Positions 35,801 through 62,800 of a stretch of DNA of 64,000 bases are shown one piece after another (position 1 is the first letter of the stretch; the number at the start of each line of letters is the position of its first letter). Position numbers: made by a program. Source of the DNA: Ophelia neglecta (Eukaryota); the NCBI GenBank assembly GCA_965285935.1, contig OZ260665.1:5394001-5458000 (forward strand). The letters run 5' to 3'.

Positions 35801-38800
35801 CGTATCAGCAAGCACTGCTAGTACATTCAGGGTTGTTGTTCACTTTCTAATGAATTGATTGATTTGGGCAAGCTATTGTACTACTTTTTGACAATGGATG
35901 GCTGCTATTGATTGATACAGGGCCTCTAGAGAGAATAAGTCCCGTTTAAAAGTGTATTATTTTCATTGTATACATGTTCAATCATCGCTTGCGACTCAGA
36001 GAAAGTCACTCGAGGGCGAGCAGAAGCAATATATAATCAGTTTGGCTTTACCCCTCGCCTACTTCACTCAGCCAAACACGATGATAACAATGTAAACACC
36101 GGTAGCCTACGCCTACCCCGCTTATCAGTACATATTTCTATGTAACCGAGAAATGCTTACTGGAATTCGCTCTTAAAAGTGCTTCCAGGTTATAATTACA
36201 AACAAAATATTTGCCTACCATGTATTAAGGGAAAGCTCCGCTATTTAGTCAAGTAGCTGCCTTGATCAGGGTGAGCGTATTTCGCAATATGTCTCCTGGG
36301 GTAGCGAGTCAGTATCAGGTTTGGTCGGCGAGACTGTATGGCCTCGCTGGCTGTAGTGCAGCAGCACTCGTTATACAATGCCGATTGTGTATGCTTCATT
36401 TCATTGATTAAGGGGGGGGGGGAGATTTCCAGGTGCCGGCACTCTAGATAAAAAAAAGGATATGATAGTTCCCATATTTGTAAAGTACCCATTTTCACAT
36501 GATTTCAGGTAAAAATTATCCTTTTTCTAATGAATTAATTGATTTGGGCAAGCTATTGTACTACTTTTTGACAATGTATGGCTGCTATTGATTGATACAG
36601 GGCCTCTAGAGAGAATAAGTCCCGTTTAAAAGTGTATTATTTTCATTGTATACATGTTCAATCATCGCTTGCGACTCAGAGAAAGTTACTCGAGGGCGAG
36701 CAGAAGCAATATATAATCAGTTTGGCTTTACCCCTCGCCTACTTCACTCAGCCAAACACGATGATAACAATGTAAACACCGGTAGCCTACGCCTACCCCG
36801 CCTATCAGTACATATATCTATGTAACCGAGAAATGCTTACTGGAATTCGCTCTTAAAAGTGCTTCCAGGTTATAATTACAAACAAAATATTTGCCTACCA
36901 TGTATTAAGGGAAAGCTCCGCTATTTAGTCAAGTAGCTGCCTTGATCAGTGTGAGCGTATTTCGCAATATGTCTCCTGGGGTAGCGAGTCAGTATCAGGT
37001 TTGGTCGGCGAGACTGTATGGCCTCGCTGGCTGTAGTGCAGCAGCACTCGTTATACAATGCCGATTGTGTATGCTTCATTTCATTGATTAAGGGGGGGGG
37101 GGGAGATTTCCAGGTGCCGGCACTCTAGATAATAAAAAAGGATATGATAGTTCCCATATTTGTAAAGTACCCATTTTCACATGATTTCAGGTAAAAATTA
37201 TCCTTTTTCTAATGAATTAATTGATTTGGGCAAGCTATTGTACTACTTTTTGACAATGTATGGCTGCTATTGATTGATACAGGGCCTCTAGAGAGAATAA
37301 GTCCCGTTTAAAAGTGTATTATTTTCATTGTATACATGTTCAATCATCGCTTGCGACTCAGAGAAAGTCACTCGAGGGCGAGCAGAAGCAATATATAATC
37401 AGTTTGGCTTTACCCCTCGCCTACTTCACTCAGCCAAACACGATGATAACAATGTAAACACCGGTAGCCTACGCCTACCCCGCCTATCAGTACATATATC
37501 TATGTAACTGAGAAATGCTTACTGGAATACGCTCTTAAAAGTGCTTCCAGGCTATATTTACAAACAAAATATTTGCCTACCATGTATTAAGGGAAAGCTC
37601 CGCTATTTAGTCAAGTAGCTGCCTTGATCAGGGTGAGCGTATTTCGCAATATGTCTCCTGGGGTAGCGAGTCAGTATCAGGTTTGGTCTGCGAGACTGTA
37701 TGGCCTCGCTGGCTGTAGTGCAGCAGCACTCGTTATACAATGCCGATTATGTATGCTTCATTTCATTGATTAAGGGGGGGGGGGGGGGGGGACATTTCCA
37801 GGTGCCGGCACTCTAGATAAAATAAAGATATGATAGTTCCCATATTTGTAAAGTACCAATTTTCACATGATTTCAGGTATAAATTATCCTTTTTCTTCCG
37901 GAAAACGCTTATTTTTCATTGTAAAAAAACACAATTTTCCATAAAAAAATAATCAGTGGAAATTGTATGACCCCCCCCCCCCCCCACCCCCTGTCAGAGG
38001 CCGATCCAATTCTCTGATCCCTTATCCGCTGATGCTTTGACCACCCCCCCCCCCCCCCGCCCGCCAAATCTTCTCTACCGGATTAAATTTCATAAATGCA
38101 TATTACCTTTTAACCCTTCCATTTATTATGCACTTTTAATATAAAAAATGGAGAATTAAAATCTGTAGGGATGTTTCATTTGGTTTATAGCTCAAAACCA
38201 CTACTCGTTATATTGAAAACAACACTGTCTATAAAAACAGAAATGGTACAAAATTATTACATAATGTGAATCATCACTGGGTAATATCCCTAATGACATT
38301 TAATCAAAGTTAAATCTATATTTTACTACCAACGGGCTTCAACCGAGAACAATTTTTCTCTAAAAGCAATATTTAAGAAGTTTTATGATTAATTAAAAAA
38401 CTTCACCCTAGTGATGATACACATTATACAATATTTGTCTTTCCATTTTCAGAATGTCCCTTGATCCAGGTAAGGAGCATGATAAGTGGAAGGGTTTAGA
38501 GGTAATATAAATTTATGAATTTAACCCGGTAGAGAGGATTGGGCTGTGAGGGGGGTTTAGCTGGGTATAGTAGTCAGGGCACATACCCTAAACTGACAAG
38601 GAACCTGAATCTCGTATCTTTTATAATATTATCAATCGTACATTCGTTAATAAAACAGATGAATCGGAAGTAGCTCTGCTCAATATATCAGGTATTTATT
38701 CATTTAACTTATCAAAATTGGTGTCAGGTCTGTAAATAACTCCAATGATAGCGCCACTCTGAGTATGAACACTTTCTTTTCTCAGTTCAATGAAACAACC

Positions 38801-59800: not shown

Positions 59801-62800
59801 TTTTAAAGATTCAAGTACCAATGTGTGGTAGTGTAGAATTGCCGCCTTTTTTAGGTCTAGCAAGCACCGCTGTATTATCTAGCGCCCTAGGGCTATTTTC
59901 TTATTGGCCGACGCAGTCATGCATAACAGGCGGTAATTTCAGTCTTAACCGCTACCTTTGCCGGCATTCTGCCGTTAGCTTTCCTTGTGCAAGGAGGCCT
60001 CATCAAACCTAGCCATTAATCTAGTTCCTTGGACAAAGTCCAGTTCCTTACTGGGTAAGTGACTATGCAGTATTTCCTATGTTAATTCTTAATCTATATC
60101 ACGCAATGGAACTGATTACCTCCGTGAATCTTATACTTTAGCTACAAGGAAAGCTGCTATATGTAAAGCCTTTAATTGTAAATATCCTTTAAACCGCTTT
60201 GGTAATTTGATCTTTAAGTATATGAAACGTTGCTCGAGTTATCGAACGTATCTACAAATTGTATTTTATTATGTTCCAGATTAATAATTGTTATATCAGA
60301 CAGAGCTACTAAAATAAACTTTGCCTACGTACAATAAACTATATTACATAGACCCATCCTGAGGATTTGTGATTTCTCGAATACCACAAATGCTCATCTC
60401 TGTCGCCAGGGTGACTTTATGCTAGATGGACCGCACCTGGACTACGTGCCGGTTCTATCACAAAGGGGCAATGTGATCACGTTGCTCATACAAGAGATCT
60501 CTTTGAGTTTGTCTAGTAAGTTACCATTATACGAGAGCTTATAAACATCCCAAAACCACCACCACTTGATTTAGTAGGATCGGTCCTGTCTTTACCAACT
60601 CAGGTTGGCAGCCTGGCGACTGGATGCAAATCAGTTCGGTTTGTCTCTATAAGACAAAGCAAATCGTAGCCTTGTCTTAGCATTATATCAAAGGCCTGTA
60701 CTTGTGTAGCTATACCGAAACCCTGAACATTGCCGAAAGCAAATTTTGTGTTGGTAAGGGGTTTGTAAATTGACGGGGTCCCACGTCAGCTACGGCTATT
60801 GTCGAGGAGGTGGAGTTTCTTTTAGCATTTTAAACATTTAGCTGTAAATGGGAATTTATCTTTAGGGAATTTGCTAGCTCGTAGTCTTGCGGATACTGAG
60901 CTCTGTTTCACGCAGGGAGATTTAAGAATGGCATCATGTCCACATTGTCATTCATCTGCCGCCGACTGCGTTATTGCCTTTACTGTCGAGGTGGTGGAGT
61001 TTCTTTTAGTATTTTTAACATTTAGCTGTAGATGTGTGTTTGTTCGAAATATCTTATGGGACGTTAAGATCCTTCACTTAAAATTTGCAGTTTTCTTGGT
61101 TGCAAATAAGTCAGACTTCCATCTGTAAAAGTGTTATTCAAACTGTAGGCACTGTGTCTGAGAGCTAATAGATGACATAACGGTGTTGGGATGGCGATCC
61201 TTGAGAAGCCACGCAATCGAAACATTGAGTGTCCGGCAATATCATTCCGCTGGATGCCTATCAGACATCATGTCCTGGAGAGAGGGCGACCCCCTGCTGA
61301 AATTCAGTCGAGGCCCTAATTCTTTGATCGCCTGCGTTGGAGTTTGAGTGACCGCGTTAGTCGAGCTAACCCATTAAAGGGCAGCTTAGCCGTATATGCT
61401 GTAACCTTTAGGTGCTTTCCGGGGCTATATGTCTTCTCCGAATCGCTGTGGTCAGTTCCCGATCTCGGCGATAGAGGTGTTAACGCCCCCTGTGAACGGC
61501 TCTATCGAAATAGTACATATCAGCCACCGTACTTATTATTTGACAGCGCCTTCACCCACTCGAATATTCACCACAAACAGGTTGATGGCACCAAATAACA
61601 CAAACCGTGTTCGATTTTGTTATACCAATACCTAATGTTTTTTGATCCGAGATATAAGCACATATAAAAATCTAACTACGATTCAGAATTTTGGAAACCA
61701 GTTAATATGTTAAGCGTGCTGTAGGTTTTATGATCGCAGGCAAAGTGACCAGTTGGTAAATATATTTACTTTACATTAGCGTATAGACCAAGCATTCAGG
61801 AAGATGATACCAGCTTAATGCTTACCAATAATCAATAAAGTTACCTGTATGTCGATAAAGATGTCACCTGCCGGTATACACATATATGTACATGCAATTC
61901 ATACATATACGTACCTGCAATTCATCTTGGTTTAGATATTCGGTCAACCTGTACACATTATATTAAGTGTGTTTGATGGACTGAGGACGCGACCGTCTGA
62001 CCTAGAGTAGGCAGTTAGCTATATTAGTTTTACCTGTAAACTTGGCTGACCGTCACGCGGCGTGAACACTGGGCCCTGAAACCTGCGGTCACCTGGCTGT
62101 TTTCTCTGTGTAGTCTATGTAAACTAAGATTATCATCAGCCGAATGTTGTGATAGTATGATGACGGTATTCATAGACACGCAACTTGGTGCCGGAATTCT
62201 AAGAGGTCAAGGCAAAGGTACCAGTCAGTATGTGTCTGAACTGATCCGATCACAGAAGTAGATCATAGACTAACAGTATCTCCATCAGTTACCGTCTTGG
62301 GTCTACCTCTTTTCACCGTTATTGGATCTGAAAGCCGCTGGTAAATACCTGTCATCCCTCCACGTTCACGCAAAGTTAATGAGGCATGGACTTCTAACCC
62401 CCCCCCCCCCCGCCACCACCACTACCACCATCACCACCACAACCATCACGATCTTTACCCTTCAGTACATTCATTATACCTGCCCGCCGACGCGCAGAAA
62501 TATAAGCCTCATCTATCCTTTCTGTCTTCGCGCTGTGTTCTGAATAGAGACAGCGTACTATAGAAACTGATGACAGGAGACGCGGGATGTAGACTCATCT
62601 TTGTAAGCACGGACGACCATATAAACTCCAGTTAGGTACGTTCTACTGGGTATGTAGTTGTTCTGTATTGGTTCATATGAAGGGTTCATATATTCTACAT
62701 TGGGTCATATGACCGGATTGTATGTCCCACAATGAGTCATATAACGGCCTTTATCGCTGCTCTTTTCGGTCCTACATGACAAACATATGCCTATGGAAGG

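What the first reader, a model, noticed from the sequence alone, without database searches (positions are those of the whole stretch)
38565..62075. Transporter cluster with duplicated promoter/UTR blocks that lack a coding exon
Seen, reading the minus strand: block B (62070-61865), gene 58.3-57.0 kb, block C (55545-54608), block A' (51560-50785), block C' (50640-49420), B (47665-47470), B' (45360-45265), A (44990-44548), D (43445-43205), gene 42.9-41.6 kb, D' (38805-38565). Blocks A and B end in conserved splice donors. Inference: there were more duplication units than surviving CDSs. Either paralog CDSs were deleted (birth-and-death evolution), or the 41.6-kb gene uses an array of duplicated alternative first exons and promoters spliced to one coding exon.
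Basis: partly seen in the sequence, partly recalled or inferred. Interest (0 to 1): 0.65.

Follow-up and report, generated by a model that had tools for sequence, protein, structure and literature searches.

The report
Duplicated noncoding blocks around two transporters
Two neighbouring transporter genes are surrounded by extra, diverged copies of their non-coding flanks, which look like ordinary leftovers of local DNA duplication rather than a lost gene or a special promoter array.

Summary
Random placement and orientation of the four families in the window gives a joint chance of about 2e-5.

The two genes are intact paralogs of the EamA/DMT transporter family, each with its CDS in one exon. 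They share 50% aa identity, with dN 0.38-0.40 and dS 0.9-1.1. The window holds no third CDS remnant.

Three points refine the picture:
- A' and C' abut within about 5-20 nt, so there is one rearrangement junction.
- B homology spans about 440 bp and is interrupted by a 1.13-kb foldback insertion upstream of gene 1.
- The blocks are less diverged (K 0.26-0.44) than the CDS at 4-fold sites (K 0.78).

The order C...A'|C'...A is what a tandem duplication of the intergenic spacer gives, with no lost CDS. A deletion scar of a third paralog is not excluded. Use as alternative first exons is untested, and the proposed donors are mostly weak. Genome-wide copy number could not be checked. Verdict: ordinary, low interest.

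The parts
57023..58296 (-). Gene 2, single coding exon of an EamA/DMT transporter paralog. The exon starts at 58296 after a pyrimidine tract and AG. The in-frame ATG is at 58279 and the stop at 57023-57025. An out-of-frame ATG lies at 58286.
   Evidence: Pfam EamA 30.9 bits, cutoff 28.2. 50% identity to gene 1.
41607..42888 (-). Gene 1, single coding exon of the paralog. The exon starts at 42888, the ATG is at 42848 and the stop at 41607-41609. An in-frame TAG lies 18 nt before the ATG.
   Evidence: Pfam EamA 23.9 bits, below the 28.2 cutoff. AF2 model pLDDT 82 and pTM 0.80. Foldseek top hits are all DMT-fold transporters, TM-score 0.79-0.82 on the target for 5i20.
61660..62098 (-). Block B62, about 440 bp of non-coding sequence 3.4-3.8 kb upstream of gene 2. 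It is the candidate promoter and 5' non-coding exon. Its strongest donor-like site has 61915 as last exon base; a second lies at 61845.
   Evidence: nhmmer against B47, E 3.7e-16; tail, E 1.6e-6 to 4.5e-9. Alignments. Donor scores.
47439..47690 (-). Block B47, left part. It is the homolog of B62, 4.6-4.8 kb upstream of gene 1.
   Evidence: With its tail, K2P to B62 is 0.44 (0.36-0.53).
46140..46308 (-). Block B47, right part. It continues the B62 homology on the other side of the foldback insertion.
   Evidence: nhmmer E 1.6e-6 and 4.5e-9. The B profile gave E 8e-44, but this sequence was in the profile. Alignment.
46302..47434 (.). Foldback or MITE-like insertion with long inverted termini. 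It splits B47 and is not part of the duplication.
   Evidence: Inverted match 46302-46429 to 47434-47307, 94.5%. nhmmer E 1.4e-33. Colinearity with the uninterrupted B62.
45253..45359 (-). Block B45, a 107-nt partial old copy of the B core.
   Evidence: nhmmer against B47, E 1e-7; against B62, E 0.061. K2P 0.48. Alignment.
44411..44987 (-). Block A, 1.56-2.1 kb upstream of the gene 1 ATG. A donor-like motif has 44674 as last exon base. A C-rich low-complexity patch lies just upstream, to about 45060.
   Evidence: Shared 13-mer ACTCACCACCCTC in the C-rich patches of A and A'.
50650..51569 (-). Block A', a copy of A with two extra stretches of about 170 nt. No CDS follows it; it abuts C'.
   Evidence: K2P between A and A' 0.37 (0.31-0.44).
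49406..50628 (-). Block C', a copy of C that starts about 5-20 nt after the end of A'. The rearrangement junction lies at about 50630-50640.
   Evidence: K2P between C and C' 0.26 (0.22-0.31).
54597..55549 (-). Block C. It begins 1.47 kb downstream of the gene 2 stop codon and contains an internal repeat (55550-55227 ~ 55088-54845).
   Evidence: Internal repeat E 1.5e-11.
43193..43453 (-). Block D, a young sharp-edged repeat in the putative 5' intron of gene 1.
   Evidence: 93% identity to D', E 3e-63. Sharp edges. No Pfam match. No homolog found.
38555..38812 (-). Block D', the second copy of D, 2.8 kb downstream of the gene 1 stop.
   Evidence: K2P 0.073.
43085..43116 (-). A 32-nt look-alike of the gene 1 exon start (AG plus the first 30 nt), 227 nt upstream of the real one.
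   Evidence: Local alignment; 1 of 1000 shuffles reached its score.

Best explanation
The locus is an old tandem pair of EamA/DMT transporter paralogs, and both are kept by selection. Each has its whole CDS in one exon, preceded by an acceptor, and therefore probably has at least one non-coding 5' exon.

Block B is the only upstream sequence the two genes share. It is the best candidate for the ancestral promoter and first exon (inferred).

The surplus non-coding blocks are footprints of later local segmental duplications in the spacer between the genes. They are not relics of vanished genes.

Specifically, the segment running from C (1.5 kb past gene 2) to A (1.6 kb before gene 1) was duplicated head to tail. 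This gave C ... A'|C' ... A, with the A'|C' contact as the single novel junction. The interior of the first copy was later lost or replaced. Satellites, a foldback element and a SINE-like element were inserted. B45 is an older partial copy of B. D/D' are a much younger pair, probably a dispersed repeat.

Shown here: the homologies, their order and orientation, the junction, the divergences, the absence of a third CDS, and the intact DMT-fold genes.

Inferred: the duplication mechanism, the role of B, and that A', C' and B45 have no function.
For: 1. Order and orientation. All nine blocks are direct, and the order is gene 2, C, A', C', B47, B45, A, gene 1.
2. Junction. A homology stops at 50650 and C homology starts at 50628. 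The three-way alignment places the switch within about 5 nt.
3. Flanks. There is no A-like sequence upstream of gene 2 and no C-like sequence downstream of gene 1, even with two-sequence profiles.
4. No CDS relic. tblastn with both proteins finds only the two genes. The next best hits are E 0.55 (a tandem repeat) and E 1.9. Of the 147 ORFs scanned in 38-64 kb, only the two EamA ORFs had a credible Pfam match.
5. Local origin. No further copy of A, B, C or D lies in the other 40 kb. The joint chance of the spans and orientations is about 2e-5.
6. Age. The blocks (K2P 0.26-0.44) are less diverged than the 4-fold sites of the CDS (0.78, 95% 0.55-1.13). B against 4-fold sites gives Fisher p 0.004.
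7. Genes. dN/dS is about 0.35-0.44. 35 of 35 aligned family members match Pfam EamA. The model has the DMT fold.
Against: - A tandem duplication predicts homology all through the unit. The interiors (51570-54597 against 44988-49406) share nothing but a C-rich low-complexity patch, even with nhmmer --max. In particular, no B copy lies between C and A'. At least one extra deletion or replacement is therefore needed.
- A/A' (K 0.37) and C/C' (K 0.26) differ (Fisher p 0.006). One event predicts equal ages unless rates differ locally.
- The lower divergence of the blocks relative to the CDS could instead mean constraint, that is, function.
- Genome-wide copy number is unknown, and there are no transcript data.
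Confidence: 0.5

Rival explanations
1. Birth and death. The array once had three units of the form B-A-CDS-C. The middle unit lost its CDS, the rest of its intron and its 3' flank in one deletion of more than 4 kb, and the scar of that deletion is the A'|C' junction. Gene 2 lost its A block, and gene 1 lost its C block.
For: - A' resembles the upstream flank of one functional gene, and C' resembles the downstream flank of the other.
- The junction is as clean as a deletion scar would be.
- The divergences fit a tree in which gene 1's unit split first (A/A' 0.37, B62/B47 0.44) and the units of gene 2 and the middle copy split later (C/C' 0.26).
Against: - No trace of a CDS remains anywhere else in the window.
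- It needs two unit duplications plus several separate losses: A from unit 1, B from unit 2, the CDS and 3' flank from unit 2, and C from unit 3.
- If units 1 and 2 split at K 0.26, an A copy should still be alignable in the 3.3-kb intron of gene 2. None is found.
Confidence: 0.25
2. Functional array. B47, B45, A and perhaps A' are alternative promoters with non-coding first exons, each spliced to the acceptor of gene 1 at 42888 (or 43115). The duplicated blocks are kept because they diversify regulation.
For: - Gene 1 has a good acceptor 40 nt before its ATG, so it needs some 5' exon.
- All candidates lie upstream on the same strand.
- AG|GT motifs are conserved between A and A' and among the three B copies.
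- The A core around the motif is better conserved than the rest of A: 21% against 32% differences, p 0.012.
- The B copies are less diverged than 4-fold sites.
Against: - The donor-like motifs at 44674, 45291 and 47500 are of a strength found once per 430-550 nt on this strand.
- The A core (K 0.25) is no better conserved than block C (K 0.26), which lies downstream of a gene.
- Homology runs about 180-260 nt beyond the motifs, as expected of plain duplicated DNA.
- No CpG or GC peak marks the blocks.
- B47 is disrupted just after its motifs by a 1.13-kb insertion.
- There are no expression data.
Confidence: 0.12
3. Interspersed repeats. A, B, C and D are old transposable-element families that lie near the genes by chance, and A' and C' are two neighbouring insertions.
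For: - Homology of each block ends fairly abruptly and does not extend through the spacers.
- D/D' are sharp-edged and 93% identical, and their translation recalls (from memory only) a motif of LINE endonucleases.
- The window is rich in repeats and holds reverse-transcriptase fragments.
Against: - No copy of any block lies elsewhere in the 64 kb. All copies share one orientation, and the joint chance is about 2e-5.
- No TE protein domain, TIR, LTR, tail or target-site duplication was seen for A, B or C.
- The real interspersed repeats in the window behave differently. They have copies far away or inverted: 51643-51738 ~ 2413-2505, 56725-56945 ~ 6554-6312, and 53384-53584 ~ 40692-40946.
- For D, Pfam and the homolog search gave nothing.
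Confidence: 0.08

Closest known systems
Tandem segmental duplication (copy-number gain) with a single head-to-tail breakpoint junction
   Same: Same orientation. The end of the unit (A') is joined directly to the start of the unit (C'). The flanks outside the unit are single-copy.
   Different: The interior of the two copies is no longer alignable, and the two ends differ in divergence. The event is old (K about 0.3), so microhomology at the junction cannot be read.
Variable first-exon arrays such as the clustered protocadherins and UGT1A. The protocadherin arrangement is taken from the abstract start in the search listing for PMC3333863. UGT1A is recalled.
   Same: Paralogous blocks lie in tandem upstream of one downstream exon, on the same strand, each with an AG|GT motif.
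   Different: In those arrays the variable exons are coding and each promoter's use is documented. Here the blocks hold no ORF that continues into the gene, the motifs are weak, and use is untested.
EamA/DMT transporters: Pfam PF00892, and solved relatives 5i20, the triose-phosphate translocator 5y78, nucleotide-sugar transporters 5oge, and LicB 7paf/7b0k
   Same: Two EamA-like halves, ten long helices, DMT fold.
   Different: An insert of about 90 residues between the halves is modelled at low confidence (170-234). Sequence identity to solved structures is 8-12%. The substrate is unknown. No named ortholog could be retrieved. A likeness to the animal SLC35G group is my recollection only; PMC9333335 was seen only as a search listing.

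Membership tests
EamA / DMT superfamily transporter | Match to Pfam EamA (PF00892) at or above the gathering score | tested here: met
   Gene 2 scores 30.9 bits against a cutoff of 28.2. Gene 1 scores 23.9 bits, below the cutoff. All 35 of 35 aligned family members, the two genes included, match EamA at E <= 0.001, best 3.2e-21.
EamA / DMT superfamily transporter | Two homologous five-helix halves forming the ten-helix DMT fold | tested here: met
   The AF2 model has pLDDT 82 and pTM 0.80, with helices 3-35, 41-62, 71-94, 100-123 and 128-145, then 245-270, 276-298, 307-333, 336-355 (broken) and 368-391. Foldseek gave 12 PDB matches at E <= 0.001, and every one listed is a DMT transporter; 5i20 has a target TM-score of 0.79-0.82. 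The N-terminal half (34-176) matches LicB residues 145-290, E 0.001.
EamA / DMT superfamily transporter | Transport activity and substrate | not testable with these tools
   Needs expression and a transport assay.
Variable or alternative first-exon array | Tandem paralogous blocks upstream of a shared acceptor, on the same strand | tested here: met
   B47, B45, A and A' all lie upstream of the acceptor at 42888 on the minus strand.
Variable or alternative first-exon array | Each block is transcribed from its own promoter and spliced to the common exon | not testable with these tools
   No transcript data. At motif level, the donors at 44674, 45291 and 47500 score 2.1-2.5 bits (one such site per 430-550 nt), 51083 scores 3.7 bits and 61915 scores 5.5 bits.
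Variable or alternative first-exon array | Sequence constraint on the exon and promoter part beyond that of neighbouring neutral DNA | tested here: inconclusive
   The A core has 21% differences against 32% in the rest of A (p 0.012). Its K of 0.25 equals that of block C at 0.26. B62/B47 at K 0.44 is below the 4-fold sites at 0.78 (p 0.004), but only alignable DNA can be measured.
Birth-and-death relic (unit with a lost gene) | Recognisable remnant of the CDS between the duplicated flanks | tested here: not met
   tblastn with both proteins at E <= 50 gave nothing colinear between 49.4 and 51.6 kb. The best stray hits were E 0.55 and above.
Tandem duplication of the intergenic spacer | Head-to-tail order with one novel junction (unit end joined to unit start) | tested here: met
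   The order is C ... A'|C' ... A, with the junction at about 50630-50640.
Tandem duplication of the intergenic spacer | Homology throughout the duplicated unit | tested here: not met
   The interiors 51570-54597 and 44988-49406 share only a C-rich patch.
Tandem duplication of the intergenic spacer | Equal divergence at both ends of the unit | tested here: not met
   K for A/A' is 0.37 (0.31-0.44) and for C/C' is 0.26 (0.22-0.31), Fisher p 0.006.
Interspersed repeat (transposable element) | Dispersed copies in either orientation | tested here: inconclusive
   No other copy lies in the 64-kb window. Genome-wide copy number could not be tested: no eukaryotic genome collection was available.
Interspersed repeat (transposable element) | TE hallmarks: terminal repeats, target-site duplication, tail, TE protein domain | tested here: not met
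   None for A, B or C. D has sharp edges but no Pfam match or homolog.

The most novel reading that the evidence does not exclude
Gene 1 is driven by an array of duplicated non-coding first exons with their own promoters (B47, B45, A and the distant A'). Each is spliced to the single coding exon. This would be a non-coding counterpart of the protocadherin/UGT1A design, created by spacer duplication in an invertebrate-type genome and kept because it diversifies where the transporter is expressed.
Probability: 0.1. Interest if true: 0.45.

Novelty: new member of a known kind. Interest (0 to 1): 0.2.

Why it matters
If the best reading is right, this is a routine example of how spacers in tandem gene pairs are reshaped by local duplication, deletion and repeat insertion. 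Its value is mostly a caution for annotation: duplicated flanks without a CDS need not mark a lost gene.

It would become more interesting only if transcript data showed that the duplicated blocks act as alternative promoters. The locus would then give a dated, sequence-resolved case of regulatory novelty made by duplicating non-coding first exons.

The two genes themselves belong to a family of at least 603 uncharacterised EamA relatives of unknown substrate.

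Tried and rejected
Searches for relatives and names:
- The word-based homolog search with gene 1 found nothing.
- The same search with the best relative, P0004, found only P0004 itself, unnamed.
No organism or ortholog name was therefore obtained.

Test of D as a LINE endonuclease fragment (an idea from memory):
- Pfam at E <= 10 gave nothing.
- The search among longer proteins gave nothing.
- tblastn in the window gave only D and D'.
- The comparison with the ORF beside the window's reverse-transcriptase fragment gave E 5.6 (one search was a coordinate slip).
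- The idea stays unsupported.

Other negative checks:
- Rfam and tRNA scans of the whole window gave no hits.
- CpG observed/expected and GC profiles show no island at any block.
- The repeat search inside the first spacer found no large terminal repeats.
- nhmmer with the 34-bp satellite found only the satellite itself.

Scope of the Pfam ORF scans:
- 147 of 166 stop-to-stop ORFs of at least 50 aa in 38-64 kb were scanned. The 19 dropped were other frames inside the two CDSs.
- 123 of 131 ORFs of at least 65 aa in 1-38 kb were scanned. The 8 dropped were overlapping frames inside two tandem arrays.

Script failure: the donor-scoring script stopped at an eighth site because I gave a wrong coordinate. 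The seven printed values are the ones used.

Not done:
Putative 5' exons and the coding exons were handled separately.
- The closed collections (metagenome and viral contigs) were not used.
- The bacterial and archaeal genome collection was not scanned, since it cannot hold this locus.
- No paper supplements were consulted.

Organism: I do not take the contig for human. CpG observed/expected is 0.73 window-wide, and the genes have no close named relative.

Full report
CONTEXT

The window is 64,000 bases with no N. GC is 40.6% and CpG observed/expected is 0.73. It is rich in tandem arrays and holds two reverse-transcriptase fragments. This composition is not that of a vertebrate, and I do not take the contig for human.

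THE GENES

Two long ORFs lie on the minus strand.
- Gene 1: CDS 42848..41607, 413 aa. An in-frame TAG lies 18 nt upstream of the ATG. A pyrimidine tract and AG put the exon start at 42888.
- Gene 2: ORF open from 58336, in-frame ATG at 58279, stop at 57023, exon start at 58296.

The proteins are 50% identical over their whole length. Over 410 aligned codons, dN is 0.38-0.40 and dS is 0.92-1.08. This is an old duplication with both copies under purifying selection.

Family assignment:
- Pfam gives EamA for both genes. Gene 2 scores above the gathering score (30.9 against 28.2); gene 1 scores below it (23.9).
- A profile of the pair finds 603 proteins at E <= 0.001, 22 at E <= 1e-30, best 3.5e-79.
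- All 35 of 35 aligned members match EamA.
- The N-terminal half matches the second half of LicB (7b0k, E 0.001).
- The AlphaFold2 model of gene 1 (pLDDT 82, pTM 0.80) has five plus five long helices. The insert at residues 170-234 is modelled at low confidence.
- Its 12 PDB matches at E <= 0.001 are DMT transporters: 5i20, 5y78, 5oge and 5ogk.
- The protein atlas also points to EamA clusters, score 0.96.

The 'transporter cluster' label is therefore sound. Since each CDS lies in one exon, no spliced model was needed. I built and searched no joined sequence, and looked at putative 5' exons separately.

THE BLOCKS

All are direct.

| Pair | Coordinates | Support |
|---|---|---|
| D/D' | 43193-43453 ~ 38555-38812 | 93% identity, E 3e-63 |
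| A/A' | 44411-44987 ~ 50650-51569 | three colinear pieces, E 3.5e-18 to 6e-23 |
| C/C' | 54597-55549 ~ 49406-50628 | three pieces, E 3e-6 to 4e-43 |
| B62/B47 | 61843-62098 ~ 47439-47690 | E 3.7e-16 (blastn only E 0.018) |
| B45/B47 | 45253-45359 ~ 47461-47568 | E 1e-7 |
| B45/B62 | 45245-45362 ~ 61845-61987 | E 0.061 |

A' is longer than A because of two extra stretches of about 170 nt.

1. B homology continues for another 170-180 nt (61660-61841 ~ 46140-46308). Upstream of gene 1 it is interrupted by a 1.13-kb element with long inverted termini (46302-47434). Its arms are 94.5% identical over their outer 128 nt and match over about 270 nt at nhmmer E 1.4e-33.
2. Homology in both A and B runs about 180-260 nt past the proposed donors. 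The blocks contain these motifs rather than end in them.
3. A' ends at 50650 and C' starts at 50628. A three-way alignment shows the switch from A-like to C-like sequence within about 5 nt.

Profiles of A, B and C find no further copy anywhere in the window. The best stray hit was 40 nt at 2880-2918, E 0.01. C has an internal repeat (E 1.5e-11).

MORE THAN CHANCE?

I placed the nine blocks at random position and orientation in 64 kb. The observed spans with common orientation arose with probability 0.097 (A), 0.042 (B), 0.078 (C) and 0.070 (D). The joint result was 4 of 200,000.

The clear interspersed repeats of the window behave differently.
- 51643-51738 has a copy at 2413-2505 (92%). It is flanked by a 13-nt target-site duplication.
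- 56725-56945 matches 6554-6312, inverted.
- 53384-53584 matches 40692-40946, inverted.

NO THIRD GENE

tblastn with both proteins at E <= 50 finds only the two CDSs. The next hits are E 0.55 (in a tandem repeat at 15.8 kb) and E 1.9.

Of the 147 ORFs scanned in 38-64 kb, three had any Pfam match. Two were the EamA ORFs. The third was an ORF inside the 90-bp tandem repeat, with two matches below their cutoffs.

AGES (K2P with bootstrap)

| Comparison | K2P | 95% interval |
|---|---|---|
| D/D' | 0.073 | 0.044-0.108 |
| C/C' | 0.26 | 0.22-0.31 |
| A/A' | 0.37 | 0.31-0.44 |
| B62/B47 | 0.44 | 0.36-0.53 |
| B47/B45 | 0.48 | 0.34-0.67 |
| 4-fold sites of the two CDSs | 0.78 | 0.55-1.13 (105 sites, 51% identical) |

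- B is less diverged than 4-fold sites (p 0.004).
- A and C differ from each other (p 0.006).
- The A core around the donor-like motif is better conserved than the rest of A (p 0.012). Its K of 0.25 is no lower than that of C.

WHAT IT MOST LIKELY IS

The order on the minus strand is: B62, gene 2, C, spacer, A'|C', satellite, B47 (split by the foldback element), B45, A, D, gene 1, D'.

The pattern C ... A'|C' ... A is what one head-to-tail duplication of the segment from C to A produces. The junction joins the unit's end to its start. This reading also explains why A is absent upstream of gene 2 and C is absent downstream of gene 1. It needs no lost CDS. I rate it as the best single account (confidence 0.5 together with the view that the surplus copies are relics).

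Its weak points are real.
- The interiors of the two copies share nothing but a C-rich low-complexity patch, so a later deletion or replacement must be assumed. That deletion must include a B copy.
- The two ends differ in divergence.

It predicts the same clean junction and fits the three divergence levels. However, it needs two unit duplications and at least four separate losses. It also leaves unexplained why no A survives in gene 2's intron if that unit split from the middle one only at K 0.26. I give it 0.25.

- In its favour: both genes have acceptors just before the ATG, so some 5' exon must exist. B is the only upstream block shared by both genes and is less diverged than 4-fold sites. 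It is therefore a reasonable candidate for the ancestral promoter and first exon.
Only 61915 (once per 3.8 kb), 61845 and 47441 stand out.
- No CpG or GC feature marks the blocks.

D/D' are a separate matter. They are young and sharp-edged and flank the gene 1 exon. I suspected a LINE endonuclease fragment from the translated motif, but that rests on memory only. Pfam, the homolog search and in-window comparisons gave no support.

WHAT STAYED UNCHECKED

No eukaryotic genome collection was available.
- Transcripts.
- Orthologous loci.

Papers: PMC3333863 was seen as a search listing with the start of its abstract. PMC9333335 was seen as a search listing only. The comparisons with UGT1A and SLC35G are recalled.

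VERDICT

The feature is an ordinary product of local duplication, deletion and repeat insertion in the spacer of a tandem gene pair. It is a new, uncharacterised member of known kinds. Interest 0.2.

Noticed in passing
window 51647-51738 (copy at 2413-2505): A short SINE-like or 3'-LINE-like insertion ending in a (CAA)n-type tail on the minus strand. It is flanked by a 13-nt target-site duplication (AGAGGGTTGTTAG at 51634-51646 and 51739-51751) and sits inside the C-rich patch upstream of A'. The second copy is 92% identical.
   Followed up: partly
window 46302-47434: A foldback or MITE-like element of 1.13 kb. Its inverted termini are 94.5% identical over the outer 128 nt, and nhmmer matches the arms over about 270 nt. 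It has no Pfam domain and is inserted just 3' of the B47 core.
   Followed up: partly
window 48037-49010; related patches at 51740-51877, 45000-45060, 45375-45410 and 43850-43940: A C-rich satellite with a 34-nt unit, 14 copies at 92% identity, plus degenerate arrays. Short patches of a similar C-rich motif lie in the opposite orientation just upstream of A, A' and B45 and in the gene 1 intron. They could have been recombination-prone sites.
   Followed up: partly
window 44020-44279: A 90-nt tandem repeat, 2.9 copies at 95% identity, between A and D. Its translation gave only Pfam matches below their cutoffs.
   Followed up: no
window 58277-58286: In gene 2, the ATG that corresponds in position to gene 1's start (ATGTGT...) is out of frame. 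The in-frame ATG lies 7 nt further on. Translation would therefore need leaky scanning or the second ATG.
   Followed up: partly
window 43085-43116 vs 42858-42889: A 32-nt duplicate of the gene 1 acceptor and exon start, 227 nt upstream of the real one. 1 of 1000 shuffles reached its score.
   Followed up: partly
window 40692-40946 and 53384-53584: A palindromic element downstream of gene 1 with an inverted relative in the spacer between C and A' (nhmmer E 4e-21). It is probably another MITE-like repeat.
   Followed up: no
window 56725-56945 vs 6312-6554: An inverted interspersed repeat (nhmmer E 3e-8) in the 3' flank of gene 2.
   Followed up: no
window 19619-20929 (-) and 33257-33622 (+): Reverse-transcriptase fragments. 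RVT_1 scores 26.5 bits (below the cutoff) and 39.3 bits (above it). They are non-LTR-like retroelement remains. The 401-aa ORF at 19616-20821 has no other domain.
   Followed up: no
window 1673-2323, 15499-15961, 30398-31864, 34425-34866, 35844-37896: Five further tandem arrays. One is a unit of about 680 nt repeated three times at 97-98% identity (35844-37896). Another is a 1.5-kb array whose ORFs give spurious Pfam matches.
   Followed up: no
gene 1 protein residues 170-234 (window about 42340-42147): An insert of about 65-90 residues between the two EamA halves. It is modelled at pLDDT below 50 and carries several N-x-S/T sequons and a conserved P-I-C-V motif shared with gene 2. It is probably an extracellular or luminal loop.
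   Followed up: no
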